Shown here one piece after another: positions 859-35,535 of a stretch of 35,535 nt of DNA (position 1 is its first letter; every line of letters starts with the position of its first letter). The position numbers and the translations under genes are program-made. The notes under the pieces were generated by a model. The model was not told where the DNA came from, made no database searches, and saw only the letters and a program-made list of their open reading frames with translations. Source of the DNA: a virus (taxonomy: Duplodnaviria > Caudoviricetes); IMG/VR virus record IMGVR_UViG_3300022074_003403, positions 1 to 35,535 of that record; one strand, written 5' to 3'.

Positions 859-1508
859 TTTAAGGGTCTTACTGTTTTAATTGTTGTTGTTGCTTGTTGT
901 AATATTTTTATAGTTTCAGCAGCTTTAGTTGAGCCATCCTCTGTTGGAATAACATTAACTTCTTCTGAATCAATATCATACACCTCTTCTTCCTCAGTCT
1001 GAACATGATTATCATAATCAAATAGAGCAGGACTGCCTTGTGCTGTTATTGCTCTGAATGACAAAGACCCACCTTGCGTGGACCAGAATACCATCTTATC
1101 AGCGCCTACTGATTTCATTAATGTTGCTTGTGGTGTAAAAAAATCTGTTGTAAAAGAATATGCTTTTGACCCATCAATCTTACCGACCAGAGCATGACAA
1201 TAATTGTAAGAGTTATCTGCTGAATCAAAATAACATGCTGACATCATACATAGAACATTATCTTTATAAGTGGCCAAACAGTAATGAGTGTAGGTACTCT
1301 TATCAATAATATCGCTATTTGAAAATGATCTCATTATAGATACCCAGTGATCTAATTTGTCTTCGTCACTTAGTTCTGTATCTGAATTATATATATAATT
1401 ACCATTCTCAATGTATGCCTTTGAGTCATCATATATTCTTTCAAAGTCTTTGCTATCTATGAGTTCGTCAAGTTCACTTAGAGTTAGATGTTTGCAAGTG
1501 TAAGACAT
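855..1508 (-). CDS. Hypothetical protein
   Basis: 217-aa ORF coupled to the fibre gene (TAATG) and to the next gene (ATGA overlap). Confidence 0.65.
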   Translation of the reverse strand: MSYTCKHLTLSELDELIDSKDFERIYDDSKAYIENGNYIYNSDTELSDEDKLDHWVSIMRSFSNSDIIDKSTYTHYCLATYKDNVLCMMSACYFDSADNSYNYCHALVGKIDGSKAYSFTTDFFTPQATLMKSVGADKMVFWSTQGGSLSFRAITAQGSPALFDYDNHVQTEEEEVYDIDSEEVNVIPTEDGSTKAAETIKILQQATTTIKTVRPLK

Positions 1509-10200: not shown

Positions 10201-11019
10201 TCAATCCTCTTCCATGTCTCTGGCGTCCAAATAAATTATATTACATCTGCAGTTTATAACATTCTTTGCACCACCTGCAGGGTCACCTGCATGTTTCATT
10301 CTTGCACCACCGACCTCAAACTTTTCACTCATATCTATACTTGGCTTTGCGTTCATCGCAAAATGATCTGGCCTTGTCCGTTCATCGTTTGTGGCCACCC
10401 ATTTCTTTTTCATTTCTATACCAGTATCGTCTTGGACTGTTTGATAATATTGGTCATGAGCAAAACTTGCAGCTCCATGAGTTTCTGTTCTTGCTATCAA
10501 AGCTGCTCTTCTCATTGTCAAAGCTCCAACTCTAGTCACAAGCGTCCTAGAAATCTCTGGGAGCGATTGTCCTTCTAATTGACCTTCTTCTATTATCTTC
10601 TTAATCTGTTCGCTTAGACGAGAGCTAAGGCCGTCTAAGAAGTCAATTCTACCAGTAAAGTATCTTGAAACTAATATATCTATATCTTGATTTCTACCAA
10701 AGACCAGAGCTTCTTGTTTCACACTAAAGTATCTTTGTTCATTACCCTCATAGATAACAGCAAAGATTCTTTTTATATGTTGCTGCATGATAGGTATTAA
10801 TGATTCTCTGAGCGCCATAGAAGCTGCTACTGGCTCGTAAACTCCAAACTCTCTATACATATAGGCTTGACCATTTAGCCACTTAGAGAAGACAGCACGA
10901 AGCTCTTTGAAGTTTCTTCTTTCTAATCTATCTCTGGTGACTCTGGCTTTCAGCGCTTCTCTTTGTATGCTTACTCTACCAAGTCTTATGTCATGAAATT
11001 GTTTCTTCTGTCGCTTCAT
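10201..11019 (-). CDS. Minor head morphogenesis protein (Mu gpF / SPP1 gp7 family)
   Basis: RAALIARTETH, KKWVATNDERTRPDH and INCRC motifs. Confidence 0.9.
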   Translation of the reverse strand: MKRQKKQFHDIRLGRVSIQREALKARVTRDRLERRNFKELRAVFSKWLNGQAYMYREFGVYEPVAASMALRESLIPIMQQHIKRIFAVIYEGNEQRYFSVKQEALVFGRNQDIDILVSRYFTGRIDFLDGLSSRLSEQIKKIIEEGQLEGQSLPEISRTLVTRVGALTMRRAALIARTETHGAASFAHDQYYQTVQDDTGIEMKKKWVATNDERTRPDHFAMNAKPSIDMSEKFEVGGARMKHAGDPAGGAKNVINCRCNIIYLDARDMEED

Positions 11020-13067
11020 GTTTTGCTTGAGAGAGGATGGCCCTTTGGAAATAAATCGGTGTCATGTTTACCACTTCTGAATCTTCCTGTTCTCAAAGCT
11101 CTAAGGTAGCTGTTCACTCTGGCCAAGGCCCACTGGTCTGGTCCTGTCACATTTGGTCTGACTGATTGAGGATTAGTTCTGTATGCACCTACACCTCTTC
11201 GGAAGACAGCTTCCAAAGTTCTTATGTTTGTTTTCTTAGTCTTGCTGTCACCATACTTTTCATTATGATCTTTTACTTTCTTCTCTAATGCTTTTCGCAT
11301 TGGACCAGAAATGCTTGGTGCTTTCTCTTCCAAGTCCTTTGTATCTATATGCTCTTCTAAGGCATACAGTTTATCTTCTTCAATCTCTATCTGCTTTCTT
11401 ACTTTCTTGGCCCAAGAGAAACCATCGTCACCACCCCACAAGGCCCAAGCGATTCTACCTGCGCTTGGATAACCCTCTTGGCCTTGTCTAAAACCTTGGC
11501 CTTGTTTATCCACTTCATGCCTAGAGAAAAAACTAAACATTCTCTTTACAGTAGATATAGATAGATTTTCTCTATTGACTAATTGGTTTGCTCTAGCAAC
11601 ACCAACAGAAGTCCCACCTCGGTTGAACTCCTTTCTCCAATCAAGTCCTCTCTGCGCTTCCTCAGCCATAGAAGCTGTAGGCTTAGTATCTATATCCTCA
11701 AGAGCTTTCTCTTCGGCTAGATAATATTCATCAACTTCCTTATCGTCTACATCGTCCTCATCGTCTGGCATGTATTCTTCAAGGTCTTGTTCTTGGACTG
11801 GATTCTCTGGCTCTGGGACGGACTCGTCTCCAAGAGGGAATAGGGTAGCAGGTACTAGTAAATCGTCAGCACCTTTCTTTGGCTCTAAGCCTATGGCAGC
11901 TCTTGCTTCATTTCTTGACATGATTCCCTGCGCTACTGCAGAGGTCACATTCTCATATATTCTTTTTCTTCTTTCTGACAAAGCAGGTATGGCGTCAATG
12001 TCAAACTCAAGAGTAAGTCTGTCATCAAACATAGGTATAAGCCACTCATTTAAGTCAGAAGCGATTTTTTTAAGGAAGGGTATGATAGTCTCTTCATACA
12101 ATGCAAGACGAGCTTCTGCAACATTTGCGTAAGTCTGAGCGTCTGGCACTCCAACTAACTGGGACGGAACTCCGAAGCAAAGCGCAATATCACTCGCACT
12201 CATGTGTTTTAAATTGAGGAAATCCATGTCCTTCGGAGACAGTCCCATTTCTTTCCAATCAAAATCGCCTTCTAATAATAGAGGTCTACCTGCATTGTTT
12301 GACCCACTGAATCTATTGTTGATGTCTGTTAGTAGCTGTTGTCTTTGGGAATCGGATAAGTTTATTGAAAAGCCTTGCTCGTCTCTTGGTTTAAATATGA
12401 CAGCTCCACTTGGTCTTGCTCCATTACTTAATAGATTTACATTATGAGTACTGGCCATATTGAACTGATCTACTTCTACTGCAGCAGCAGCTAATGGACT
12501 GCAGCCGTAGTAATCATCAAGAGGTGACCAGAGCTTTATATGTTTCAATTCAGAGAATCCGTTTTCTTGATCTACTTCATAACTTGCTTCTAATCTACCA
12601 CCGACAGTGTAGTCATATCTACTTGGTATAGCTTTACCACTTCCTTTTATAGTAATCCTATCTGGTCTCAAAAGATGTAGCTCTCTTGGCGTCCCTAATG
12701 AGCCACCTGCTTTTAGTACATAAGCATTACCAGAAAGAAGTAAGAAGCCAAAGAGACTGCTCATGAACTCATAGTAAGATTCAAGAGGATTAGGCCTGTC
12801 TAGCAGGTCCATCAAAGGATGATTCTCAAGAGGAGTGTCACCTGCTTTGATTTTATATGGAACAGCAGCAGCACCTTTGGCTATTTCATTAACACATTTA
12901 TAGACTATTGGATTTTGTAGGTAGCCTTCTTTGGCTAGGTCTTGGTACTTGTAATCTTTGCCACTAGAGTTTACGCCAAAGTAGCCAAGCATATTTGTAT
13001 TACCCATTTGCTTTTCTTCTTGATTCAATCCGAAGAGTCGCTGAAAAAATGTTCTTTCTTTTGCCAT
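11016..13067 (-). CDS. HK97-family portal protein with ~230-aa C-terminal extension
   Basis: LLSGNAY, LHLLRPDR, YYGCSPL, NGARPSG, IALCFGVP, YANVAEA, RNEARA motifs; then an acidic linker and two extra domains. Confidence 0.95.
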   Translation of the reverse strand: MAKERTFFQRLFGLNQEEKQMGNTNMLGYFGVNSSGKDYKYQDLAKEGYLQNPIVYKCVNEIAKGAAAVPYKIKAGDTPLENHPLMDLLDRPNPLESYYEFMSSLFGFLLLSGNAYVLKAGGSLGTPRELHLLRPDRITIKGSGKAIPSRYDYTVGGRLEASYEVDQENGFSELKHIKLWSPLDDYYGCSPLAAAAVEVDQFNMASTHNVNLLSNGARPSGAVIFKPRDEQGFSINLSDSQRQQLLTDINNRFSGSNNAGRPLLLEGDFDWKEMGLSPKDMDFLNLKHMSASDIALCFGVPSQLVGVPDAQTYANVAEARLALYEETIIPFLKKIASDLNEWLIPMFDDRLTLEFDIDAIPALSERRKRIYENVTSAVAQGIMSRNEARAAIGLEPKKGADDLLVPATLFPLGDESVPEPENPVQEQDLEEYMPDDEDDVDDKEVDEYYLAEEKALEDIDTKPTASMAEEAQRGLDWRKEFNRGGTSVGVARANQLVNRENLSISTVKRMFSFFSRHEVDKQGQGFRQGQEGYPSAGRIAWALWGGDDGFSWAKKVRKQIEIEEDKLYALEEHIDTKDLEEKAPSISGPMRKALEKKVKDHNEKYGDSKTKKTNIRTLEAVFRRGVGAYRTNPQSVRPNVTGPDQWALARVNSYLRALRTGRFRSGKHDTDLFPKGHPLSSKT

Positions 13068-24284: not shown

Positions 24285-24542
24285 TTAGGCGTGATCTGGT
24301 GAAGCCGAATCTGGTGATTCTGTAGCTTTTCGCTCAGATGAGTAAGCAATATTTAAACCTGCAAGAGTACAGAGCCTTCGCTTTTCGTCCATACCCTTCT
24401 GCGATAGCAAGGCTTTGTCCTCTACTATCTCTACAAAGCCTTCCTTTATAAGCTCTGTTAATACTTCACTCGGCATACTATCACCAAACATTATGGATAG
24501 TATCCCACCTAGTCTCCTCGTCTGAGTCTTACTTAATGCCAT
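24285..24542 (-). CDS. Hypothetical protein at the end of the lysis operon
   Basis: 85 aa; ATG directly follows the endolysin stop. Confidence 0.7.
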   Translation of the reverse strand: MALSKTQTRRLGGILSIMFGDSMPSEVLTELIKEGFVEIVEDKALLSQKGMDEKRRLCTLAGLNIAYSSERKATESPDSASPDHA

Positions 24543-24995
24543 TTAGATATGTGTCCAGTCCTTGCCCTCAAATAATAATGCTTCTGCTTCTCTTCGTCTA
24601 ACCAATCCTTCAAGGACTTGGCCACCTGCTTTGTTCCATCTTTTAATCTGCGCAGGGACTTCGTCATATTGACCTTCGTTCAAGACACGAAGGAGTGTAG
24701 AACTCATGAAATTATTTGGCCCAAGATTGTAAACGAAAGCAGTTAAAGAATCATGGTGGCACTGCTTGAGTGGCACTTTTACATATTGATTTACATAGCC
24801 TTCATACTCTTCTAGCTCTACCTCTAATAAATGATTGGCATGATCTTCGCTTATTACATCGCCTTGCTTTACTCCTTTTGTGTGGCCATATCCTATGGTC
24901 CATACATTAGCGCTGCATTGATACGCTTCTAGCTCAAGGCCTTCAAACTTCTTTATAAGTCCAACGCCTTCTGCTGATATTTTGTTGTTGTTCAT
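24543..24995 (-). CDS. Endolysin, GH24 lysozyme (start revised to MNNNKIS, 150 aa)
   Basis: IKKFEG...AYQCSANVWTIGYGHT (E-x8-C-x5-T triad), FVYNLG, GLVRRREAE; GGGGAG RBS before 24995. Confidence 0.95.
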   Translation of the reverse strand: MNNNKISAEGVGLIKKFEGLELEAYQCSANVWTIGYGHTKGVKQGDVISEDHANHLLEVELEEYEGYVNQYVKVPLKQCHHDSLTAFVYNLGPNNFMSSTLLRVLNEGQYDEVPAQIKRWNKAGGQVLEGLVRRREAEALLFEGKDWTHI

Positions 24996-24996
24996 T

Positions 24997-25371
24997 TTAA
25001 TAATCTCCCCAGACTTTTGTTTTTTTACCACCAAAGTACTCAACAGCGTGACCTTCTTTAATAAGAATTGCACAAATATCCTCACCATTTTCTGTAAATG
25101 GCGTGGCCAAGATTCTTCCATATTTATCTATACCTGCTGATTTGATGACTAGCTTTTCTGCGCAAAGCTCAGATAGTCTGGCTGCTGCTGCTTTGCCTAA
25201 TGCTTTCTCTTTTAAGTCCCTTGTCCTAGACTCTGGTGTGTCTATACCCATAAGTCTGCAGCGTTGCTTGTGTAGCTTGACTGAGAATCCAAGGTCCAAG
25301 GTGACATCAATAGTGTCTCCATCTACCACTCTTTCTAAAAGAGCGTTATATACAAATGGCACTACTTCCAT
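24997..25371 (-). CDS. Thermonuclease (SNase-like)
   Basis: RVVDGDTIDV, RLMGIDTPES and DKYGRIL motifs. Confidence 0.92.
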   Translation of the reverse strand: MEVVPFVYNALLERVVDGDTIDVTLDLGFSVKLHKQRCRLMGIDTPESRTRDLKEKALGKAAAARLSELCAEKLVIKSAGIDKYGRILATPFTENGEDICAILIKEGHAVEYFGGKKTKVWGDY

Positions 25372-25379
25372 AGTCTCTA

Positions 25380-25556
25380 CTATTTATCTTTGGCCTTACC
25401 GATATTGAGCGCTATTGCGTCAAGTATAGAATAGGCCTTCTTTACCCACCCATCATCTACTGGTGTTGGTGTGATAGCTGCTATAGCACTAGCACCTACA
25501 ACCAACCAAGGTAGAATCTCTATGAGTATTCTTATCCATTGAAAAAACTCCAACAT
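25380..25556 (-). CDS. Small holin-like membrane protein (58 aa)
   Basis: Not in the track. AGGAG RBS; MLEFFQWIRILIEILPWLVVGASAIAAITPTPVDDGWVKKAYSILDAIALNIGKAKDK; one hydrophobic helix and a basic C-terminus. Holin role inferred from context. Confidence 0.7.
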   Translation of the reverse strand: MLEFFQWIRILIEILPWLVVGASAIAAITPTPVDDGWVKKAYSILDAIALNIGKAKDK

Positions 25557-25598: not shown

Positions 25599-25982
25599 TT
25601 AATCTTTGGTCTGCTTATTTTCTTCGTCTTCATCATCTTCATATTCTCTATAGAATTCAATAATATGCAGAGTATCTTTCAAGTATCTTTTAAGTTCAGC
25701 CATGTTCATGCTTAGATTTTCATACTCTTTTGTAGTCAAAGCATAGTATGCTGAGCGTGGTGCTTCACCTGCTTCAATCCTTTGTAGATATTCTGCCATA
25801 AGTTCTGGAGTCAGAACTGTCCAATCAACATCTACTAGTTGTACCTCAAGGGGGAGAGGTGGATGATACATTGGCATACGCTCAGCAATAGTGACTACTT
25901 CTACTGGCTTTGTTTGGCTCGGTATCATTGAGCAGCTTGTCATTAGAGCTGCAAAACTAGCCGTCAGTATTATCTTCTTCAT
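25599..25982 (-). CDS. Outer-membrane spanin (Rz1-like lipoprotein)
   Basis: Signal peptide with lipobox (MKKIILTASFAALMTSC), Pro-rich segment, overlaps the i-spanin gene by 26 nt. Confidence 0.75.
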   Translation of the reverse strand: MKKIILTASFAALMTSCSMIPSQTKPVEVVTIAERMPMYHPPLPLEVQLVDVDWTVLTPELMAEYLQRIEAGEAPRSAYYALTTKEYENLSMNMAELKRYLKDTLHIIEFYREYEDDEDEENKQTKD

Positions 25983-26364
25983 TGAATTGATCTGGGTCTG
26001 TTATATCTCTGAACTCTTGCATAAGTCTTTTGACTGCTTTATTTACCTTAGATTCTATCAAAGCAGGTTTGGCTAATGCCAGATTGTCTAAGTCATGAGA
26101 AGCAAAAGTGTTTCTTAGTTTATTTACTTCTCTCATAGACTCTTGATTCTGAGAAGCGAGTTTATTGTTTTGATTTTGTAGCGCTTCGGCCTTGGCCTTG
26201 TGCTGTAGGATTTGTTCGTTTTGTTGAGCTATAGAATTTTCTAATGCTATGGCATTACCTTTAAGGACTGAGATTTGATCTTGTAGTCTGTCTATGTACC
26301 ATGCTGAACCTGCTACTGATATTACTAGCAGCAAACCCAATACACCTGCGATTTTTATACCCAT
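25957..26364 (-). CDS. Inner-membrane spanin (Rz-like)
   Basis: N-terminal TM helix followed by a long coiled coil; upstream of the lipoprotein gene. Confidence 0.75.
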   Translation of the reverse strand: MGIKIAGVLGLLLVISVAGSAWYIDRLQDQISVLKGNAIALENSIAQQNEQILQHKAKAEALQNQNNKLASQNQESMREVNKLRNTFASHDLDNLALAKPALIESKVNKAVKRLMQEFRDITDPDQFNEEDNTDG

Positions 26365-28121
26365 GTATACACCTGTAATTTTTCTTTCTTACCTTTGGCT
26401 TCTATCTCTCCAAGAGGTAAGAGCTTAAATGATATGCCGTCTTTTGCTGTTTGTCCAATCACCAGATCAACACCTAAACCTTTTGTAGCTGACTCATATC
26501 TAGCTGCGCAGTTTACTGGGTCACCAACAGCAGAGTATTCAAACCTACTTTCAGAACCCATATTACCTACTACAGCATAGCCTGTTTCTATGCCTATACC
26601 TATTTGCACTGGTTCAATCCCTTCTTCTTCAAGCTCTTTATTTAGAATTTTAATATTGTTTTGTATCTGCATAGCAGTCTTAAGCGCAGCTTCTTCATGA
26701 TTCTCTAGGCCAAGAGGTGGTCCAAATTGTGCAAACATAGCGTCACCTATAAATTTGTCTACCAATCCGTCATACTTTTGCACTGCAGAAACTTGAGCTG
26801 TCAATGCTTTGTTCATAATATAACAAGTCATTTCTGGGCCTACCCTCTCACTCATGGAAGTAAAATTTCTCAAGTCGGTAAAGAGGAAAGTCGCATACTG
26901 TTTCTCTCCACCAAGTTTTAAAAGAGAAGGATTTTTTTGCAGCCTTGCAATTTGTCTTGGGTCTAAATATTTCTCAAACTGTTTCTTTATTTGTTGGCGT
27001 AGTTTGTACTGCTGACGGAACTTCAAAAAGAAGCCAGTACTAGCTATAACAAATTGTGATATTAAAGTATAACTAACATCTATAAGTAGACCACTTCTGA
27101 TTAGCCAGAAGCCACCAGAAGCCGTTAGAGCGAAGGTAAAACTAAGGGATGTTAGCGTACCAACCACACCAAAAGAACTCGTTAGAACGCAAATGAGAGC
27201 GCCAGATAATAAGAAAATAAGTATTTCTAGGCCAAAAGAGTAGTCTGGTATGTATGGAGAGTCTTCTATTAAGATAGATTCTGCTAAGGCTGCTTGGACC
27301 TTATGTGGCTCTTTCAATCCTACTGGAGTTGGTATTTGTATTTGTATACCTGCAGCGTCCACTCCGACAATAACAAAGCGTCCTTTTACTTTATCTAATT
27401 CTTGCAGTGTAATCTCTGGAGTTTCTACCCATGAAATCCATTTTCTTCCAAGGCTATCTGTCTTGACTGGATTCAATCCTTGTATGACTATCTCTTGGAT
27501 TCCGTTCTGATTGGTAGTAATGATATAGCTATTGCTGCCTGTCACTAGCTTATATATCTGGGTGGCGAAACTTGGTATCCATCCGTCTGGACTTCTGGCT
27601 AACAATGGTACTCGTCTTACTATAAGGTCTGCTTCTGTAGGAGCGAAAGCTAAACCCTGCAGACTAGACTCACGGAGTTCCAGATAGTTTTGTTTCACTC
27701 CCTCTAACATCATACCACCAATATCTTCTCCTTTGATAATCGTAGAAGTTGTCTTAGGATACTCGCCACTTTGATCTGGAAACATAGCTATCACTGAACC
27801 AGTTTCAGATAATGCTTGAGCAAAGACTTGATCTCCACCCATCCTGTCTTTTTGTGGAAAGCTGATTCCGTAGGCCACACCAGTTGCTCCGTATTCAATA
27901 AGAGCATAATGAAGCTGCGCAAATATATCTCTTGGTAAAGGCCATCCACCAAAGTTCTCTAGGTCTTGCTCAGAGATATTTAAAATAATAAAATTACCAG
28001 ACTCGTTTGGCGTCTCAATCAGAGAATCAAAGACTCTCATCTTCATTACTTGCAGTGGAGTCCAGTTAAATACCAATGGTATAGATAAGATTATAAGCAG
28101 TACAAATAGTATGCGCTTCAT
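26355..28121 (-). CDS. CHASE2-domain membrane class III adenylate cyclase
   Basis: N-terminal TM, GGWPLPR (CHASE2), three TMs, then FTDLRNFT, DKFIGDA, GNMGS..RFEYSAVGDPVNCAARYES, KGK; all catalytic residues present. Confidence 0.95.
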   Translation of the reverse strand: MKRILFVLLIILSIPLVFNWTPLQVMKMRVFDSLIETPNESGNFIILNISEQDLENFGGWPLPRDIFAQLHYALIEYGATGVAYGISFPQKDRMGGDQVFAQALSETGSVIAMFPDQSGEYPKTTSTIIKGEDIGGMMLEGVKQNYLELRESSLQGLAFAPTEADLIVRRVPLLARSPDGWIPSFATQIYKLVTGSNSYIITTNQNGIQEIVIQGLNPVKTDSLGRKWISWVETPEITLQELDKVKGRFVIVGVDAAGIQIQIPTPVGLKEPHKVQAALAESILIEDSPYIPDYSFGLEILIFLLSGALICVLTSSFGVVGTLTSLSFTFALTASGGFWLIRSGLLIDVSYTLISQFVIASTGFFLKFRQQYKLRQQIKKQFEKYLDPRQIARLQKNPSLLKLGGEKQYATFLFTDLRNFTSMSERVGPEMTCYIMNKALTAQVSAVQKYDGLVDKFIGDAMFAQFGPPLGLENHEEAALKTAMQIQNNIKILNKELEEEGIEPVQIGIGIETGYAVVGNMGSESRFEYSAVGDPVNCAARYESATKGLGVDLVIGQTAKDGISFKLLPLGEIEAKGKKEKLQVYTWV

Positions 28122-28140
28122 AATATAAGTACCATTTATA

Positions 28141-29235
28141 TTAGCTTCCTTGTCTTATGGTTATTTGAGTAGAACTTCCACCATTGATTGTGACTGTTCT
28201 TGAAACGCCATCTTGAATAAAGATTACTGTATATGAACCTGCGCTATCTATATCTACTCTTGCATTACCTGCAACATTTCTTTGCAAGGTCAGCACTTGA
28301 CCAGTTAGGAATGTTGTTATTTGTGTCTCTGTATCTTGTCCAAAAGATGTACCGACAATGGATAGACTGCCTTCAAGCGCAAGAGCGTCTTCATCCTCAG
28401 CTACATCTAAAGCGTCAAGGACATCTAACAAATCTTCTAAAAAATTTACATCCAGATAATTAATATCTAACTCCGTAAATTCTAAGTCTGCTTCATTATC
28501 TAAAAAATCTTCGTCTAAATAATCTACATCTAAGTCATTAAAATCTAAGTAGTCTGCAGTCTGCGTTGTCTGTTCTTCTTCTAAACTTACTTCTTCTCTT
28601 GGTGGATTTACTATGAGCATATTGTCAATGATGTCTAAGGTAAGGTCTAAGATTACTGGCGAAGTTGGTATGCTTTCAAAAGTATTTACAGAAGTTGCTT
28701 CAAACGGCTGCGATAGTATGACACTTCCCATAGCAGTCTGAACTTCTATTTCTCCAATCATAGAATCGTTTGGACCATAGGGAAGATTAATTAAAAGTGA
28801 TCTACCGAACTCATCTACTGTTGCTGAAAAACTACTACCTCTGATAAATATGTTAGCGCTTGGTGTTTTCAAAGTGACATTTTGCTTTGACATTCTGTCT
28901 ACATTTCCACTAAGAAATCTTGTAGTCCCTAATGCAAAGTTGAGAGACATCTTTGCTTTGCTTGGGTCTGGGTCATAGATGTAAGTATCTATAAGAAGAG
29001 AACTGTTTTCTGTAAGACGAACAATAGATTCATCCAGAAACTCTATGGCCATACGGCCATTCTTTGTTATTGCTTTGTCATTGGATTGTATTGCAAAGTC
29101 TAGCTCTGCAATATAATCCCTATCTCTGACTATCTGAGCTTTACCATTAAGCTCTGATATGTCGCCTATATCTAAATCAGCACCCAGTAGAGGTAGAGCC
29201 GTCAGACTGAATAATACAAATCGTACCATTATCAC
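28141..29235 (-). CDS. Exported FecR-domain protein with acidic repeat linker
   Basis: Signal peptide; IGDISELNG...FLDESIVRLTENS...TPSANIFIRGSSF FecR-type pattern; start may be 29229. Confidence 0.85.
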   Translation of the reverse strand: MIMVRFVLFSLTALPLLGADLDIGDISELNGKAQIVRDRDYIAELDFAIQSNDKAITKNGRMAIEFLDESIVRLTENSSLLIDTYIYDPDPSKAKMSLNFALGTTRFLSGNVDRMSKQNVTLKTPSANIFIRGSSFSATVDEFGRSLLINLPYGPNDSMIGEIEVQTAMGSVILSQPFEATSVNTFESIPTSPVILDLTLDIIDNMLIVNPPREEVSLEEEQTTQTADYLDFNDLDVDYLDEDFLDNEADLEFTELDINYLDVNFLEDLLDVLDALDVAEDEDALALEGSLSIVGTSFGQDTETQITTFLTGQVLTLQRNVAGNARVDIDSAGSYTVIFIQDGVSRTVTINGGSSTQITIRQGS

Positions 29236-29887
29236 CTATTGAGATTAGCTTTAAATAGGCATTATCTAAAGTGTCTATTTGCTGAATATTAAAGGTGCGA
29301 TCATCGCCTGTCTGGTCAAGATAGAAGAAACCATTTGCAGCACCAGAACCAGTAAAATTTACAGTGTTATCGTCACCATCAAGGTCCATAAAGTTTGTTG
29401 CTCCATCATAGTTAATATCAAAATCTAGTGTGTTGCCAGAACCTTGGATAATCCAATCTAAATCAAGCGTACCTGCAAGAGCAGTAGTACCTACATCAAG
29501 AGTAGCAGCGTTAGTATTGCCTGTAATATCTATATCATAGTCGCCAGTGTCAGCGCCAAAAGTATTACTAGGGTCTACTTGGATGGTCATAGAATTACTA
29601 TCTCCGTCAGCGTCATAAACAAAATTAATATTATCACCCAATATATCACCTAAGAAAATATTGCTACTTCCTATTTGATAAAGTTGTAAATTCATATTAA
29701 GTCCGTCAAGGTCAAACGGCTGTAAGCTACCTGCAGTGGAGTTCAAACCACCTATGATATTTCCAGAACCACCAATTTGCTCAATCTTAATTGTACTTTG
29801 ATTTCCGTTTTGATCTAAATAAATTTCATTATCGTCAGCCAAAACAGACATGCTTAGAATAAGACTTAAACTAATTAGCTTTTTCAT
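29177..29887 (-). CDS. Secreted curlin-like beta-repeat protein (CsgA/CsgB-like)
   Basis: Signal peptide MKKLISLSLILSMSVLA; repeated hydrophobic-alternating strands ending Q/x-x-G-x-x-N; directly downstream of csgG. Confidence 0.7.
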   Translation of the reverse strand: MKKLISLSLILSMSVLADDNEIYLDQNGNQSTIKIEQIGGSGNIIGGLNSTAGSLQPFDLDGLNMNLQLYQIGSSNIFLGDILGDNINFVYDADGDSNSMTIQVDPSNTFGADTGDYDIDITGNTNAATLDVGTTALAGTLDLDWIIQGSGNTLDFDINYDGATNFMDLDGDDNTVNFTGSGAANGFFYLDQTGDDRTFNIQQIDTLDNAYLKLISIGDNGTICIIQSDGSTSTGC

Positions 29888-30710
29888 GTTTCCAAAACCC
29901 TCGGTCATAACCGATATTAATTATTTCTAGTACACCTTGTTCTATCGCTTTTGAAAGAGCTAAGGTAGCACTCTCATTGGTAGAAGCACCCACTTCTATT
30001 TCAACGAGTTCTGTACCCATTTCTATGAATCGGAAAACATCTTCTGATATTCCAGTAGACCAGATAGTTTTAGAGCTGCTAACTTCTATTAGTATCTCTC
30101 CAGTAGCGACAGATACAAGACGGAGACTTACGCTCACATTGTCTTGTCTGTACTGACTAGAAGAACCAATACCGAGGTATCTAGCTCCTGCGCCACCAGT
30201 CACTAAGTTAGTATCATAACTTACTACAGCACCTTCCACAAGAAGACCTGCAAATAGCAAGGGTGGTAGCTCTGTTCCTTCGCCATTATCTGCAAATTGA
30301 TTTCTTGTACTACGAATTAATTGTCTTTCTCGGCTGAGCGAATCCAGATTAATTCTTTCTATAACTGTAAAGAAGTTTCCATTGTCCTTACCTGCATGTT
30401 TCAAAGCTCTTATAAGTATTGTATAAGGCGCTTGTGTTATAGCTGTAGAGAATAAAGCGAAACTACTATTGCTTTTTCTTTGACCTGTTTGGTCAGTAAA
30501 TGAAGTCGGATAGACTGCTACTACTGGCTTTTTGAGTGGCACTTCTACAGCAGCAAGAGCTTCACTCTGTAGATCAAGTATTTGTACTTCTTCTCGTGTG
30601 TCTGCTTTGAACCTATAAGGATTAGTGGCTTCGTCTATCTCTACTAGACTACAGCTAGAAAGTAAGATCACCAATAGGTATGGTAATTTCTGTGACATTT
30701 CCAAGCTCAT
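29871..30710 (-). CDS. csgG: Curli secretion channel CsgG-like lipoprotein
   Basis: Lipobox LLSSC; VAVY..FTDQTGQRK, FSTAITQ, F.VIER..L..L.RERQLIRSTR, GGAGARYLGIG, LRLVSVATGEIL; start 30710 or 30698. Confidence 0.93.
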   Translation of the reverse strand: MSLEMSQKLPYLLVILLSSCSLVEIDEATNPYRFKADTREEVQILDLQSEALAAVEVPLKKPVVAVYPTSFTDQTGQRKSNSSFALFSTAITQAPYTILIRALKHAGKDNGNFFTVIERINLDSLSRERQLIRSTRNQFADNGEGTELPPLLFAGLLVEGAVVSYDTNLVTGGAGARYLGIGSSSQYRQDNVSVSLRLVSVATGEILIEVSSSKTIWSTGISEDVFRFIEMGTELVEIEVGASTNESATLALSKAIEQGVLEIINIGYDRGFWKHEKAN

Positions 30711-31155
30711 CTGTAATAGTTAATGTTATAAATTCACCATCGCTTGTGTAAGTAATGGTGTTGCCAAATAGTGTGAATGTTCCACTCTCGCTTGGATTCT
30801 CTCCAAACAGATTGTCTACTATCTGTCTGCTAATCTGAGCGAATATGCGTGATTCTAAGTTCCTCTGGAAGCGACTTATTACACTGTTCTCTTCGTCCCT
30901 TTTTCTCTGTTCTTCAAGGGCCAGTAAATCTTTCCGAAGTTGCTCAGCTCTGGAATACTCCTGCTGTTCTATGGTCAGATAATGGGCCGAGGTATTTAGA
31001 GAACCATTGAATGAAGGTGACTTGAATTTGTGTGTGATCTCATCTGCTGCTAGTGAACAAGTAAGAAATGCGACAGCAAGAATCCCTACTATAATAAGTA
31101 TTTTATTTCTTCCGAATTGCAGTTCCTTTTCTACCTGCTTTTTTTTCTTCGCCAT
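30655..31155 (-). CDS. csgF: Curli assembly component CsgF-like
   Basis: Signal peptide, then HKFKSPSFNG (cf. CsgF F.NP.FGG), F..NLESRI...ISRQ, ITDELGNVTEITIP; immediately upstream of csgG. Confidence 0.85.
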   Translation of the reverse strand: MAKKKKQVEKELQFGRNKILIIVGILAVAFLTCSLAADEITHKFKSPSFNGSLNTSAHYLTIEQQEYSRAEQLRKDLLALEEQRKRDEENSVISRFQRNLESRIFAQISRQIVDNLFGENPSESGTFTLFGNTITYTSDGEFITLTITDELGNVTEITIPIGDLTF

Positions 31156-31378
31156 CTTTTAGTTTTTCTATAGTCAAGACCTTTTCTTTTAAGCGTATCA
31201 TATCTTGGTCTAAAAGTCTTAGAGCGTCTGTCAGTCTAATGATAGTCTTCTTCATATCATCAACAGCAGGGTCAATCTTATTGGTTATTGTTTGCCATAC
31301 AAAATAAACAAAATATCCAAGACCCACTACCATTACAGTAGTGAAACCAAACTTATCTATAAGTTCTACTATGTCCAC
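31103..31378 (-). CDS. Small single-TM coiled-coil membrane protein
   Basis: 91 aa, one TM plus amphipathic helix; paralogue of 31380-31673. Confidence 0.75.
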   Translation of the reverse strand: MDIVELIDKFGFTTVMVVGLGYFVYFVWQTITNKIDPAVDDMKKTIIRLTDALRLLDQDMIRLKEKVLTIEKLKDGEEKKAGRKGTAIRKK

Positions 31379-31379
31379 G

Positions 31380-31673
31380 CTAGTCCCTTCTAGCGTCTAT
31401 CTTTCCGTCCTCTACAAAGTTCTCAGCTCTCGCTATCCTTTCTAGGTCTGGAGATAAATCTAAAGCAGCAGACACTATTGTGTCTATGCGTATCATTTCA
31501 TTGTTCATTATTGTAGCTCTGGTTATGAGCATTTTAGTAATGCCTTGTATGGTCTTTATCTCGCCAACAAGTTCACCCATAAGTTGTCTCATAATAAGAA
31601 ATATAAAATAACCCATTACAAGGCCAGAAGCTATAGGAAGGCCTACAGATTCAATTAATTCAAAGGCGTTCAT
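31380..31673 (-). CDS. Small single-TM coiled-coil membrane protein
   Basis: 97 aa; aligns without gaps to the neighbour (ELI 5-7, G11, GYF 21-23, MIR 60-62). Confidence 0.75.
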   Translation of the reverse strand: MNAFELIESVGLPIASGLVMGYFIFLIMRQLMGELVGEIKTIQGITKMLITRATIMNNEMIRIDTIVSAALDLSPDLERIARAENFVEDGKIDARRD

Positions 31674-31676
31674 CTA

Positions 31677-32066
31677 CTATTTGTCTTCACCTTTAAAGCT
31701 CTTAGAAGCTCCACTAGTACCTGCATAAAGGCCAAACCATGCTGCTCCTGCTCCCACTACTACAGAGATCAAGCCAGACTGTTCAAAGTTTGGTGCTTCT
31801 AAATCCATAAACCACATTACTGTAGAGTACAGAAGTATTATATAAACAGTTAAAAACAAGCGAGGGAATATTCTCCATGCGTCTACGGCTTGTGCAAGGT
31901 GTATCCACTTTTGATGAGGATTGACATTCTTTGTGTCTTCTAATTCTCTAATCTTATCTTTAAGTTCTGATATTTCTTGTATCATGGCCATGAACTTATT
32001 GAGGTCCATTTCCACTTCATTTCGGTCCATGTCACCACCGAATCTACCACTTCCCATATTATCCAT
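31677..32066 (-). CDS. Two-TM holin-like membrane protein
   Basis: AGGAG RBS; N-terminal coiled coil, then DAWRIFPRLFL TM1 and GLISVVVGAGAAWFGLY TM2. Holin role is inference. Confidence 0.7.
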   Translation of the reverse strand: MDNMGSGRFGGDMDRNEVEMDLNKFMAMIQEISELKDKIRELEDTKNVNPHQKWIHLAQAVDAWRIFPRLFLTVYIILLYSTVMWFMDLEAPNFEQSGLISVVVGAGAAWFGLYAGTSGASKSFKGEDK

Positions 32067-32438: not shown

Positions 32439-35400
32439 TTAATTGAGCTGAGTTGTACTTTCAAAACCACCACCTGCAGAACCACTACCACCACCACCAG
32501 AATATGTAGGTGTATATGTTCCAGTAGTTGTCACTGAGAAAGTGATTGCAGTTCCACCTATTTCTATAGTAGCAGTTCTTACTGCTCCTGCTGTAGCAGA
32601 AGATGTAATCTTTACTTGGAATGTTTGATTGGCACTGATAGCAGGGATACTTGAGTTCACAAAAGTCCCACTATTTACACTAACTAAAGCTGTTGAATTA
32701 CCAGAAAGATTTACTGCTTTTGTTCCTGTAAATCCACTGACTGTCACTGCAGAAAAAGTGACTGTAGTACTTGCTGATACAGTAGCACCAGAAACAGAAG
32801 TAGGATTGAAAGTCACTGTCTCAGCTCCGAATCTTACAGCTCTAGCTTTGACAAGACATGTTGTTGTACTGTCATTTGAGTCTGCATTGACAAATAAATT
32901 TAGAGCAGTGTTTGATGTATGGAAGTAGCCAAACTCAAGGTGCATTACTGGCAAGTCATTGTTGTCTCCGAACTGGTCACCTGCGTCATAATATTGATTG
33001 CCTTCTTTGATACCTATAGGCCAGTACTTTGTATAGACAGTAGTGAAGCCAGACTTTAAATCTATATGAAATGAAGCACCTCTAATGTCATCGTTTTGAG
33101 CGTCAGTTATTTCTACTGATATTGTACCCATATAGAAACCTGCTCCATCGCCAATAGAACCGAGACTCACTTGGGTCATAGAAGAACCAAAGTTCACTGT
33201 CTGGCCAGTGGTAGCTGTACCCTCAGTAGGTAAAAACAGTTCATCTAGTCTTAGTAAAGATGTATTTATTTCTCCTGCATTTAAAGAATTAGCACTAACA
33301 CTTTGCGCACCAGAAGCGAGTCCAGATACAATAGAAGCCACATTGGTTTGCGTTCCTGTAATTGCACTTGTCACATCGGCTTTGGCCACACTGTTTACAT
33401 TGTTAGTATCGTTAGATGTACCTTGGCTTGTAATTACTATGGCGTCTGTAAGGTTGTTATCGTTTTCGTCTAAAAGATTTCCAGTACCAGAAGAACCAAG
33501 TACAGCTCCAAAGGTTGCATTTGTTTCTATGCCAGAAAGTTTTGTTCCTGCTCCACTTTCTAAAGAATTAAGATCAGACAGTCCTACATTTGTTTTAGAT
33601 AAAGTTTGAGTACCACTACCTGCGTTATTGAGACCAAGCGTTGTACCACTTAAAGATAATGTTATCTGGTCATTCTTTAATATATCTGGTGCGTTGCTTC
33701 CGTCACTTTTTACTTGAGCATGATTGGTCACATTAGATAGACCGACATCGGACTTAGTGGTGTTTGAATTTACTATAGTAGTTGGTGCATTTGTTAAATC
33801 AGTTTTTACAGCGCCAACACCGACAGCAGTGACTTGTCCACCACCTGCGCCAGACAAAGTTCCGTTAGCAGCTATAGATATTTGTGCATTTTTAAGAGCG
33901 TTCTTTGCTTGTAGAGAACCACTACTGACTTCTAAGTCAGAAGAGTTGATGGTCAAGTTTGATAAATCATCTTTTACTTGTGCGTCATTTGTGACATTTG
34001 CTAGACCCACATCGGACTTAGTTGTATTGGCATTTATGATTGTACTTGGAGCATTACCAAGGCCTGTCTCAATAGCACTAATACCATCAGCCGTGACAGT
34101 ACCACCACCTGCTCCAGATAAAACACCTGCAGAAGATATGCTTACACTAGAGTTTTTAATTGTATTTGGAGCGTTGGTCAAGTCAGTTTTGACAGCTCCC
34201 AAACCACTAGCACTTACTGTACCACCACCTGCTCCAGATAAAACACCTGCAGCACTGATAGATATTTGAGCATTTTTAAGAGCGTTCTTAGCTGCAAGAT
34301 TACCACCACTTACTTCAAAGTCATCGCTTGTCAAAGATAGATTACTAAGATCATCCTTAACTTGTGCATGATTCGTCACATTAGATAGGCCGACATTTGC
34401 ATTAGATAAAGTTTGTGTACCACTCCCTGCATTATTAAGACCTAAAGTTGTACCACTTAGACTGATTGATATTTGGTCATTCTTGATTGCAGTTTTACCT
34501 CTTAGCTCTGAGCTTGTGATCTCAAACAAGTCACTCTCTACACTAAAATTAGAAAGGTCAGATTTTACTTGTTGATGATTAGTCACATTGTTAAGGCCTA
34601 TATCTTCTTTGCCAAAACGAAAACTTGCATTGACCACACTGGTAAATGCAGATTGCACACCCAATGTAGATACAGCTCTCAGCGCAAAGTAGTAGGTGAC
34701 ACCTGCAGACAGTCCATCAAGAATACTTTGAAATGCAAATTGAGTTTGTAATGGCCTTGTCGCAGGAATAACTTGGTTTAGATAAGTGTCATCCGTTGGT
34801 GTAAAGTTGGATGTATGTCTGTAGATTTTAATATCTTTTAGCTCATTGTTATTTGGATTGGTCCACTGTAATAAGATACCACCCACTGGTCCATCACCAT
34901 CGCCTTGCGCAGTGAAAGAGCTTGGAGCTGAGATTGTGGTAGGGTCTGATATTGTGATATTGACTGCGCTTGTATAGGCACTATTGATACCATTAATATC
35001 AAAGTGTCTTACCTTTACATTGTATGTATTACCGATAACTAAGTTTGGAATGATAGCTTTTGATACACCTTTACCTACAGTAATATCTCCAGTGTAGTCT
35101 GAATCAGTAGATTGTTTGTAGGCCACCTCAGTTCCTTGGACTCTATCAGATACAAGGTTTGTCCATGAAGCTACAACATTAACTTTTAAAGTTTGTCCTT
35201 CTGACTGTATATCACTTGCAAGAGAAAGACTTGTTGGTGGGTCTAATGCAAGACCACCTATATCTCCATCATCAATCCCTACATCCTCTGGGTCAATGTA
35301 ATCTGTTGATAGAAAATTGTAGACAGAACCATCTATTTCTTTCAGTTGTATGTTGCAGACTAGAATAGAATTTTCAGAATCTCCTTGAGGTTCAATGTTT

Positions 35401-35535
35401 AAAGTCATGACTTCAAACAATTTATTATTGAAACCCAGTCTCGTATTGGTGACATTTACATAGTCATGTGGTTGGAGCTGCATGTATCTGATTGGCACTA
35501 TGGTAGAGATAGTTGTATCTTGCCTAGAATACAGA
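32439..35535 (-). CDS. Tail-tip / host-specificity protein (J-like), C-terminal part with FN3 domains and internal repeats; 5'-truncated
   Basis: Frame is open to the window edge; LQPHDYVNVT..LGF..KLFEV, two FN3-like domains (PPTSL...W...YNVKVR; APSSF...W...YYFALRAV), repeated VGLSNVTN units. Confidence 0.85.
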   Translation of the reverse strand, partial: LYSRQDTTISTIVPIRYMQLQPHDYVNVTNTRLGFNNKLFEVMTLNIEPQGDSENSILVCNIQLKEIDGSVYNFLSTDYIDPEDVGIDDGDIGGLALDPPTSLSLASDIQSEGQTLKVNVVASWTNLVSDRVQGTEVAYKQSTDSDYTGDITVGKGVSKAIIPNLVIGNTYNVKVRHFDINGINSAYTSAVNITISDPTTISAPSSFTAQGDGDGPVGGILLQWTNPNNNELKDIKIYRHTSNFTPTDDTYLNQVIPATRPLQTQFAFQSILDGLSAGVTYYFALRAVSTLGVQSAFTSVVNASFRFGKEDIGLNNVTNHQQVKSDLSNFSVESDLFEITSSELRGKTAIKNDQISISLSGTTLGLNNAGSGTQTLSNANVGLSNVTNHAQVKDDLSNLSLTSDDFEVSGGNLAAKNALKNAQISISAAGVLSGAGGGTVSASGLGAVKTDLTNAPNTIKNSSVSISSAGVLSGAGGGTVTADGISAIETGLGNAPSTIINANTTKSDVGLANVTNDAQVKDDLSNLTINSSDLEVSSGSLQAKNALKNAQISIAANGTLSGAGGGQVTAVGVGAVKTDLTNAPTTIVNSNTTKSDVGLSNVTNHAQVKSDGSNAPDILKNDQITLSLSGTTLGLNNAGSGTQTLSKTNVGLSDLNSLESGAGTKLSGIETNATFGAVLGSSGTGNLLDENDNNLTDAIVITSQGTSNDTNNVNSVAKADVTSAITGTQTNVASIVSGLASGAQSVSANSLNAGEINTSLLRLDELFLPTEGTATTGQTVNFGSSMTQVSLGSIGDGAGFYMGTISVEITDAQNDDIRGASFHIDLKSGFTTVYTKYWPIGIKEGNQYYDAGDQFGDNNDLPVMHLEFGYFHTSNTALNLFVNADSNDSTTTCLVKARAVRFGAETVTFNPTSVSGATVSASTTVTFSAVTVSGFTGTKAVNLSGNSTALVSVNSGTFVNSSIPAISANQTFQVKITSSATAGAVRTATIEIGGTAITFSVTTTGTYTPTYSGGGGSGSAGGGFESTTQLN
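34099..34252. repeat. 34-bp exact direct repeat, 120-bp period, within the tail gene
   Basis: GTACCACCACCTGCTCCAGATAAAACACCTGCAG at 34099-34132 and 34219-34252. Confidence 0.85.

What the first reader, a model, noticed from the sequence alone, without database searches (positions are those of the whole stretch)
26355..32066. Phage curli-pore / curlin / FecR / CHASE2 adenylate cyclase cassette embedded in the lysis operon: candidate trans-envelope signalling system
Seen: eight co-oriented, abutting or overlapping genes (three small membrane proteins, CsgF, CsgG, secreted curlin-like repeat protein, FecR protein, CHASE2 cyclase) between the tail gene and the spanins; the cyclase stop overlaps the i-spanin start. 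No CsgE, CsgD, ECF sigma or TonB receptor is recognisable in the window. Known: CsgG/CsgF form the outer-membrane curli pore; csgF/csgG have been reported in some marine T4-like phages without a proven function; CHASE2 cyclases often neighbour FecR-domain genes in bacteria. Inference: the genes span every envelope compartment (surface amyloid-like subunit, OM pore, periplasmic FecR, IM sensor-cyclase), so they may form one relay converting an outside event (superinfecting phage, cell contact, fibre polymerisation) into cAMP that tunes lysis timing or host physiology. I know of no description of this complete set in an HK97-type phage.
Basis: partly seen in the sequence, partly recalled or inferred. 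Interest (0 to 1): 0.95.

Follow-up and report, generated by a model that had tools for sequence, protein, structure and literature searches.

The report
Siphovirus curli-pore cAMP sensor cassette
A group of uncultured marine phages, predicted to be long-tailed, carries between its tail and cell-bursting genes the already published 'viral curli' gene block (outer-membrane pore, fibre-like subunit, exported FecR-fold protein, membrane enzyme predicted to make cAMP), and the FecR protein ends in a curli-type strand, so it likely hangs in the pore as a tether that would report surface events to the enzyme, which remains untested.

Summary
The eight genes are real, intact and under purifying selection, but the cassette is published: Wittmers 2022 (PMC9599517) describes small gene(s)-CsgF-CsgG-curlin-FecR-adenylate cyclase in podo- and myoviruses, and cultured HTVC008M and Melnitz carry it. 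This scan met it before on other DNA (81 notes), including siphoviruses and lysis regions. Added here: (1) the carrier is a siphovirus group in which the cassette looks core (41 of 41 informative loci); (2) lysis linkage is common, not obligatory (38 of 57; absent in T4-like phages); (3) the FecR protein is a PupR-like domain, a flexible linker and a beta domain ending in a curlin half-repeat (50 of 50 loci; 0 of 1046 controls), with weak model support for binding the curlin (0.41, control 0.01); (4) the two small genes, likely the published 'histidine kinases', have no histidine; (5) the 129-aa gene is not cassette-specific. Best reading: a trans-pore tether coupling the surface to cAMP synthesis (0.45). 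No cAMP receptor was found and the host is unknown, so output and lysis timing are unshown.

The parts
31677..32066 (-). 129-aa membrane protein (phrog_10198); loosely attached, possibly holin-like (unproven)
   Evidence: PHROG hit; upstream of the cassette in 44 loci, downstream in 5; relatives in 355 cultured phage records, 348 of them Vibrio phages, against 7 records with CsgG
31380..31673 (-). 97-aa single-TM coiled-coil protein (phrog_18771); core of the cassette; likely one of the published 'HK' genes; no His
   Evidence: (38-39% to the genes before csgF in HTVC008M and Melnitz); weak YvrJ/BhlA likeness only
31103..31378 (-). 91-aa paralogue of the 97-aa protein (phrog_18771); no His
30655..31155 (-). 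CsgF with signal peptide and F-x-x-P-x-F-x-G motif
   Evidence: Pfam CsgF 1.9e-20; motif in 110 of 118 distinct homologues
29871..30710 (-). CsgG outer-membrane pore lipoprotein (lipobox read in the sequence)
   Evidence: Pfam CsgG 7.1e-49; NCBIfam PRK15184 2.4e-46, below its equivalog cut-off
29177..29887 (-). Exported degenerate curlin (236 aa from the ATG at 29887, start inferred; ORF list starts at 29908), acidic, with two C-terminal Cys
28141..29229 (-). Exported FecR-fold protein (start inferred): domain 20-200, flexible acidic linker 201-290, beta domain 291-361 ending in a curlin half-repeat
26355..28121 (-). Inner-membrane CHASE2 / class III cyclase; D416, K456, D460, S530, N537, R541 present, so predicted ATP-specific
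25957..26364 (-). i-spanin (context); start overlaps the cyclase end by 10 nt
   Evidence: phrog_739
25599..25982 (-). o-spanin lipoprotein (context)
   Evidence: phrog_812
25380..25556 (-). 58-aa single-TM protein (context; lies before or after the cassette in relatives)
24997..25371 (-). SNase-family nuclease (context; lies before or after the cassette in relatives)
24543..24995 (-). Endolysin, phage lysozyme (context; start inferred)
32439..35534 (-). C-terminal part of the central tail fibre J gene, cut by the contig end (context)
   Evidence: 69% to the J protein of G006

Best explanation
This is the published viral curli module, here in a late tail-to-lysis gene run of a predicted siphovirus, and it likely works as a trans-envelope sensor: CsgG/CsgF would form an outer-membrane pore carrying the curlin, the FecR protein would be caught in that pore with its curlin-type C-terminal strand docked on the curlin outside and its folded FecR domain left in the periplasm, and a change in that tether would switch the CHASE2 cyclase, predicted to make cAMP. 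SHOWN: gene set, order, conservation, export signals, catalytic residues, the terminal curlin strand, the FecR fold. PREDICTED: three-part architecture; FecR C-domain binding to the curlin (weak). INFERRED: threading through CsgG, FecR-CHASE2 contact, late co-transcription with tail and lysis genes. UNKNOWN: the stimulus (cell or particle contact, or completion of the fibre stub) and the cAMP target; a late infection decision such as lysis timing is the likeliest output in this lineage but is not required by the module.
For: Order never rearranged among CsgF, CsgG, curlin and FecR in the viral loci. Cyclase present in 68 of 80 CsgG loci, the other 12 ending at a contig edge. Terminal [NSTG]-x-hydrophobic-x-hydrophobic-x-Q within 0-4 residues of the C-terminus in 50 of 50 dereplicated FecR proteins (149 before), 55 of 79 distant near-full representatives (70 of 79 loose), 0 of 1046 control ORFs (14 loose), both cultured T4-like phages and 0 of 11 bacterial FecR-domain proteins; it matches the curlin motif N-$-psi-$-psi-$-Q (PMC10192328, passages). 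AF2 with a 117-row alignment: mean pLDDT 83, low-confidence linker; linker 46-119 aa in 108 rows. Fold matches PupR (Z 15.2, rmsd 2.9, 137 aligned) and, as a lead under Z 8, 5ix9 (Z 7.2, rmsd 2.2, 72 aligned), the template for the LapA retention module that hangs in a TolC-like pore (10.1101/198937, passages). Among 9 close bacterial FecR-domain proteins scanned, 5 carry RTX repeats, 5 sit beside type I secretion genes and 3 near a CHASE2 protein. Complex curlin + FecR C-domain: weak support, 0.41 against best control 0.01; mark reached by 116 of 157 solved complexes and 2 of 215 mismatches, but at 0.60 or under by only 18 solved ones and both mismatches; runs agree in at least 0% of contacts; partner pLDDT at least 82. 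Precedent: S. meliloti outer-membrane NsrA activates CHASE2 cyclases (PMC13001267, PMC7529298, passages).
Against: No FecR-CHASE2 contact was modelled or shown. The complex pass is weak and its runs do not agree on contacts. In the monomer model the terminal strand is part of the C-domain, so it may only be an export tag. One locus lacks the cyclase (L124), and PMC9599517 reports FecR and cyclase are not always present. FecR and cyclase are over 300 nt apart in 8 of 30 siphovirus loci, with unrelated ORFs between them in some. No cNMP-binding or CRP family among 44 window ORFs; CRP-like sites are below chance (15 against 24); only 7 of 151 Pelagibacteraceae genomes have a CRP-type HTH over cut-off, though this phage's host is unknown. 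Melnitz infections showed no clumping (PMC9004378, passages). Linker acidity is not universal (net 10 or more in 58 of 108).
Confidence: 0.45

Rival explanations
1. Adhesive fibre first ('sibling capture' or superinfection shield, as published): the curlin polymerises on the infected cell, the FecR protein is fully secreted as a fibre cap or tip domain, and the cyclase is a separate, optional accessory.
For: CsgF, CsgG and a curlin suffice in principle (PMC7029224). The terminal strand would also serve a cap. Many relatives have a second, more canonical curlin. Cyclase missing in L124.
Against: This lineage has a single degenerate curlin with terminal Cys. A folded 180-residue FecR domain is unlikely to pass a pore of about 13-15 A (sizes from PMC9004378; inference). 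The cyclase is kept in 41 of 41 siphovirus loci. No clumping seen with Melnitz.
Confidence: 0.22
2. Periplasmic export checkpoint: the FecR protein never crosses the outer membrane; it binds unexported curlin in the periplasm and tells the cyclase whether the pore or outer membrane is intact.
For: Fits the same terminal strand, weak complex pass and CHASE2 linkage without threading.
Against: A conserved long linker (median 87 aa) and the retention-module likeness are not needed for it.
Confidence: 0.15
3. Lysis device: the pore or the small membrane proteins act directly in lysis (pinholin-like, as proposed for Melnitz) and the cassette belongs to the lysis machinery.
For: Lysis genes follow within 2.5 kb in 38 of 57 loci; gap to the i-spanin is 41 nt or less in 25 of 39 siphovirus loci; no recognised holin in the window; weak YvrJ/BhlA likeness of the small proteins; proposal in PMC9004378.
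Against: 19 of 57 loci and both cultured T4-like phages show no adjacent lysis gene. The same spanin-endolysin cluster occurs without the cassette (L104, L107). CsgG is an outer-membrane pore and cannot depolarise the inner membrane (established knowledge).
Confidence: 0.12
4. Chimeric assembly or recent, non-functional host insertion.
For: None found.
Against: Independent contig with the same order; even depth and a contig across the junction; GC 34-40% against 38-43% for core genes, dN/dS 0.10 or less; 0 of 27 bacterial csgF loci have this arrangement.
Confidence: 0.01

Closest known systems
Viral T8SS (curli) module of HTVC023P-type podoviruses and pelagimyophages (Wittmers 2022, PMC9599517; Zaragoza-Solas 2020, PMC7029224; cultured HTVC008M KC465899.1 and Melnitz MZ577097.1, PMC9004378)
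   Same: Same genes in the same order: one or two small genes, CsgF, CsgG, curlin, FecR, cyclase; no CsgC/D/E. Protein identity to HTVC008M 28-48%.
   Different: Carrier is a siphovirus with an HK97-family capsid and unknown host; no second curlin; sits between tail fibre J and spanins. The searched passages of PMC9599517 contain no 'CHASE', 'holin' or 'spanin' and no curli-bearing siphovirus. Its 'histidine kinase' label and iron-regulator reading of FecR do not fit these proteins.
Bacterial curli (type VIII secretion)
   Same: CsgG lipoprotein, CsgF with conserved N-terminal motif, exported curlin-repeat protein.
   Different: One degenerate curlin, no CsgE or CsgD; FecR and CHASE2 cyclase attached, seen in 0 of 27 sampled bacterial csgF loci.
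Sinorhizobium NsrA - CyaK/CyaD1/D2 - Clr, and Campylobacterota CHASE2 cyclase-FecR-TPR-phosphodiesterase clusters (PMC13001267, PMC7529298, PMC9239204)
   Same: Outer-membrane input to an inner-membrane CHASE2 class III cyclase; FecR-domain neighbour in Campylobacterota.
   Different: The outer-membrane part is a curli pore, not a receptor barrel; no TPR protein, phosphodiesterase or CRP-family gene found in the phage.
Retention module of type I-secreted adhesins (LapA, MpIBP; PDB 5ix9)
   Same: N-terminal beta domain of similar fold (Z 7.2, a lead), flexible linker, C-terminal part with a signal for its own pore; the closest bacterial FecR domains head RTX proteins.
   Different: Sec signal peptide and CsgG instead of ABC/HlyD/TolC; 362 aa; no RTX repeats.
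FecI/FecR/FecA cell-surface signalling (PupR, 6ovm)
   Same: Periplasmic FecR fold (Z 15.2).
   Different: No cytoplasmic anti-sigma domain or membrane anchor, no ECF sigma or TonB receptor; different C-terminal domain.

Membership tests
Viral T8SS/curli module (PMC9599517) | CsgF-CsgG-curlin in conserved order | tested here: met
Viral T8SS/curli module (PMC9599517) | Preceded by one or two small 'HK' genes | tested here: met
   97- and 91-aa genes match the genes before csgF in HTVC008M and Melnitz at 33-39%; that these are the paper's 'HK' is inferred from position
Viral T8SS/curli module (PMC9599517) | Followed by FecR, often by adenylate cyclase; second curlin optional | tested here: met
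   second curlin absent here
Viral T8SS/curli module (PMC9599517) | No CsgD or CsgE | tested here: met
   no such Pfam hit among 44 window ORFs; contig incomplete
Viral T8SS/curli module (PMC9599517) | Host is Pelagibacter (describes the published carriers, not the module; Melnitz infects OM43) | not testable with these tools
   no close cultured relative: best capsid match 50.5%
Bacterial curli system | CsgG lipoprotein and CsgF | tested here: met
Bacterial curli system | Subunit of regular N-x-psi-x-psi-x-Q repeats | tested here: inconclusive
   7 strand-like motifs found by pattern, 4 of them ending in Q; Pfam below cut-off; 18 of 90 homologues hit; monomer not folded alone
Bacterial curli system | Separate major and minor subunits plus CsgE (enterobacterial type) | tested here: not met
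   one curlin, no CsgE hit
Bacterial curli system | Amyloid fibre formation | not testable with these tools
   needs experiment
Histidine kinase (97/91-aa proteins) | Phospho-acceptor His and ATP-binding domain | tested here: not met
   0 His in both; at most 13 of 36 rows have His in any column; no kinase family among 36 members
FecI/FecR/FecA signalling | FecR-fold periplasmic domain | tested here: met
FecI/FecR/FecA signalling | Cytoplasmic anti-sigma domain with TM anchor; ECF sigma and TonB receptor | tested here: not met
   only a ~17-residue signal-like N-terminus precedes the domain; no such partners found
CHASE2 class III adenylate cyclase | TM-CHASE2-TM-cyclase layout and catalytic residues (two Asp, Lys, Ser/Thr, Asn, Arg; rule recalled) | tested here: met
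   D416 56/56, K456 55/56, D460 56/56, S/T530 56/56, N537 56/56, R541 56/56; alignment to 6fht
CHASE2 class III adenylate cyclase | cAMP synthesis | not testable with these tools
   needs assay
NsrA-CyaK-Clr system | NsrA beta-barrel receptor and CRP-family effector | tested here: not met
   none found in the window
T1SS adhesin retention module | 5ix9-like N-terminal plug domain | tested here: inconclusive
   Z 7.2, rmsd 2.2, 72 aligned; Foldseek E 9.2e-3
T1SS adhesin retention module | RTX repeats and ABC/HlyD/TolC genes | tested here: not met
Holin (129-aa protein) | Small multi-TM protein of a holin family beside an endolysin | tested here: inconclusive
   one TM above threshold, a second by eye; no holin family hit; neighbours in Vibrio phage 70E37.1 unannotated
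Siphovirus morphotype with HK97-family capsid | Phage_capsid major head, S78 protease, portal; major tail, terminator, tape measure, distal tail, fibre J, no sheath | tested here: met
   head genes in the window; tail genes in relative G006, 97% complete, capsid 71% identical; the window itself lacks most of the tail region

The most novel reading that the evidence does not exclude
Ocean phages of all three tail types have built a sensing machine not seen in the bacteria sampled: an adhesin-type retention plug grafted onto a curli export strand, so that a phage protein spans the CsgG pore and turns contact at the infected cell's surface into cAMP; in this siphovirus group, where it is a core late gene block overlapping the spanin gene, it would act as an outside-in switch on when to lyse, for example when a neighbouring host is touched.
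Probability: 0.15. Interest if true: 0.9.

Novelty: new member of a known kind. Interest (0 to 1): 0.48.

Why it matters
Viral curli proteins make up about 0.1% of assembled ocean viral proteins and their function is unknown (PMC9599517). This locus extends the module to a siphovirus group where it looks core, questions the published 'histidine kinase' and iron-regulator readings, and offers a precise handle: a conserved terminal curlin strand on the FecR protein that links the sensor half to the pore half and can be deleted in one experiment, also in two cultured phages' genes. If the tether model holds, it is a phage-made trans-envelope signalling device and a new use of the CsgG pore.

Tried and rejected
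AF2 of the FecR protein on a shallow 57-row alignment failed (pLDDT 42.5) and was replaced. PDB sequence searches with the FecR and curlin profiles gave nothing below E 0.08. The fold search barely tested the FecR C-domain, so its fold is unassigned. Promoter and terminator scans were at chance (33 against 33.7; 5 against 6.9). CRP-type sites (consensus recalled) were below chance. No RNA holder listed. The GTDB-wide scan found only 4 loci; three lie beside an endolysin and all look like phage contigs inside MAGs, so they are not host evidence. Plasmids gave one weak partial FecR hit. Cluster look-up of 10 distant FecR proteins named no organism. Host assignment failed. Holin identity of the 129-aa protein not established. 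Distal-tail-anchored test: 15 of 45 loci had 7 kb or more downstream; 10 showed the cassette, 5 ended in or just after long tail genes and are uninformative. The idea that the acidic linker binds basic lysis debris, by analogy with NsrA and uL2, was dropped: acidity is strong in only 58 of 108 rows. The primary NsrA paper was not available, so NsrA's domain layout was not checked. Supplements of PMC9599517 (Data Set S1F, Fig. S3) were not opened; they could list siphovirus contigs or flanking lysis genes.


Full report
OBSERVATION. The window is a whole 35.5-kb linear virus record. On the minus strand the run is: tail fibre fragment, 122-aa gene, 129-, 97- and 91-aa membrane proteins, CsgF, CsgG, curlin-like protein, FecR protein, CHASE2 cyclase, i-spanin, o-spanin, 58-aa protein, SNase nuclease, endolysin, 85-aa gene. 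No gap in that run exceeds 42 nt and the cyclase overlaps the i-spanin by 10 nt. Promoter and terminator matches are at chance, so one late transcript is inferred, not shown. GC matches the core genes and dN/dS against a close relative is 0.00-0.10 for all eight genes. An independent contig has the same order (L001), and one contig of the probable source run crosses the cyclase-spanin junction unchanged.

IT IS PUBLISHED. PMC9599517 (passages and section 9 read) describes one or two 'HK' genes, CsgF, CsgG, CsgA/B, FecR, often a second curlin and an adenylate cyclase, in nine HTVC023P-type podoviruses and in T4-like pelagimyophages, with metatranscriptome expression. PMC7029224 and PMC9004378 (passages) proposed sibling capture and a role in lysis timing. 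GenBank records of HTVC008M and Melnitz show the whole set after the ssDNA-binding gene, with no annotated lysis gene beside it. A search for phage + curli + adenylate cyclase + FecR returned only PMC9599517; curlin + FecR + CsgG returned none; (listings) showed no siphovirus report. Earlier notes of this scan reached the same identification on other DNA (81 notes), some in siphoviruses and lysis regions; they are leads, not support.

THE CARRIER. The window has a Phage_capsid-family head gene, S78 protease and portal but lacks most of its tail region. G006 (49.8 kb, 97% complete, capsid 71% identical) has the same layout plus adaptor, head closure, neck, terminator, major tail, tape measure, distal tail and fibre J genes: a siphovirus; no integrase appeared among the ORFs scanned. 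Anchoring on the 85-aa gene behind the endolysin, outside the cassette, gave 92 relatives, 80 kept, 78 labelled in the new loci; 37 were too short, and all 41 with 3.5 kb or more upstream carry the cassette (32, 28 or 21 distinct at 95, 90 or 80% nucleotide identity). It therefore looks like a core block of this group. Three other complete records are podovirus-like, one with the DNA polymerase and thymidylate synthase reported for HTVC023P types. In a CsgG tree of 52 rows (91 unlabelled loci left out) siphovirus and podovirus labels interleave, with at least 7 changes forced by well-supported branches. Labels are crude: three 'sipho' rows rest on a weak portal hit and some 'podo' rows on one gene. 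Repeated exchange between morphotypes is the likely reading; no direction was tested. The host is unknown.

LYSIS LINKAGE. Of 142 loci with a cyclase, 72 remained at 90% identity, 66 had 1.5 kb or more downstream, and 9 spanin-anchored ones were set aside as circular. Of the remaining 57, 38 have a spanin or endolysin within 2.5 kb and 19 have none detected; the sample is biased towards two clades. Anchoring on the i-spanin gave 27 loci: 4 too short, 21 with the cyclase upstream, 2 near-identical ones with other genes in that slot. The 58-aa, nuclease and 129-aa genes lie on either side of the cassette in different phages. So the cassette shares the late region with lysis genes in most small phages sampled but does not need them, and they do not need it. 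The 129-aa protein has relatives in 355 cultured phage records, against 7 for CsgG, and is not core.

THE PARTS. CsgG has a lipobox and CsgF its N-terminal motif. The curlin is exported, acidic and degenerate, with invariant N, Q and G positions; 18 of 90 homologues hit Curlin_rpt. The 97- and 91-aa proteins are paralogues with one TM helix and a coiled coil; they have no His and no kinase domain, so if they are the paper's 'HK' genes, as their position suggests, that label is wrong. The cyclase keeps D416, K456, D460, S530, N537 and R541, conserved in 55-56 of 56 relatives; by the recalled specificity rule it should use ATP.

THE FecR PROTEIN IS THE LINK. With a deep alignment AF2 gives a confident domain 20-200, a low-confidence linker and a confident seven-strand domain 291-361. 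The first matches PupR (Z 15.2) and, weakly, 5ix9 (Z 7.2), which serves as model for the LapA retention module that stays in the periplasm while the adhesin threads its pore (10.1101/198937, passages). In 401 genomes of the class of G012, 146 matched the profile, nearly all on the N-domain and often in very long proteins; of 9 scanned, 5 carry RTX repeats, 5 neighbour type I secretion genes and 3 lie near a CHASE2 protein, two of these in Pelagibacteraceae. The phage proteins instead end in a curlin half-repeat: 50 of 50 dereplicated loci, 55 of 79 distant representatives, 0 of 1046 controls, both cultured T4-like phages, 0 of 11 bacterial homologues. A model of curlin with the FecR C-domain gave weak support: 0.41 against best control 0.01, runs agreeing in at least 0% of contacts, partner pLDDT at least 82; at this level a pass is more often wrong than right unless likely beforehand. 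None of 27 bacterial csgF loci (from 401 genomes; several cut short by contig ends) has a FecR, CHASE2 cyclase or small-protein homologue within about 9 kb, so the join appears phage-made in this sample.

HOW IT LIKELY WORKS. Late in infection CsgG/CsgF would assemble in the outer membrane and export the curlin. The FecR protein would enter the pore by its curlin-type end and dock on the curlin, while its folded N-domain, too large for the pore, stays inside, where it would contact CHASE2 and set cAMP synthesis (0.45). The precedent for outer-membrane control of CHASE2 cyclases is NsrA-CyaK (passages) and for FecR-CHASE2 clustering PMC9239204 (passages). Rivals: adhesive fibre with a secreted cap (0.22), periplasmic export checkpoint (0.15), direct lysis device (0.12), artefact (0.01). 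The main gap is the output: no cAMP-binding protein in the scanned ORFs, no excess of CRP sites, and CRP-type regulators in only 7 of 151 Pelagibacteraceae genomes.

VERDICT. Real, conserved and functional-looking, but a new member of a published module. Its value lies in the siphovirus carrier and in the testable terminal-strand link. Interest 0.48; novel case (outside-in lysis switch) probability 0.15, interest 0.9.

Noticed in passing
window 1508-6631 (-): 1707-aa collagen-like (Gly-X-Y) protein directly after the head genes; G006 has an 1843-aa counterpart followed by two 2OG-Fe(II) oxygenases (one with a glycosyltransferase-like N-terminus) and a methyltransferase, possibly a fibre-modification set.
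   Followed up: no
L104:514-1600 and L107:1187-2273: Two unannotated genes (146 and 208 aa) replace the cassette directly upstream of the i-spanin; no PHROG hit.
   Followed up: partly
L224:4230-10335 (G382) and L233:4049-8919 (G124): Pelagibacteraceae genomes carry CHASE2-SpoIIE phosphatase, an unannotated ~450-aa gene and a FecR-domain protein in a row: a host-side FecR-CHASE2 module with a different output.
   Followed up: partly
L355:5753-6214, L400:5648-6094, L402:1644-2880: Unrelated ~150-220-aa ORFs are inserted between FecR and the cyclase in some siphoviruses; 8 of 30 loci have a gap over 300 nt there.
   Followed up: partly
L061, L078, L093, L123, L179: One cyclase subtype with distinctive motifs occurs with different FecR/curlin clades, suggesting the cyclase is swapped independently.
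   Followed up: no
L124:920-4795: Cassette without a cyclase: the endolysin follows FecR within about 0.5 kb.
   Followed up: partly
window 24997-25371 (-): An SNase-family nuclease travels with the lysis genes and cassette in many of these phages, before or after it.
   Followed up: partly
window 24285-24542 (-): Conserved 85-aa gene without family hit closes the late run in this siphovirus group; a useful marker.
   Followed up: partly
window 11016-13067 (-): Portal protein has a ~200-aa C-terminal extension matching phrog_2859 and weakly DUF5824.
   Followed up: no
L233:8923-9561: Alternative oxidase gene directly after the FecR-domain gene in a Pelagibacteraceae genome.
   Followed up: no
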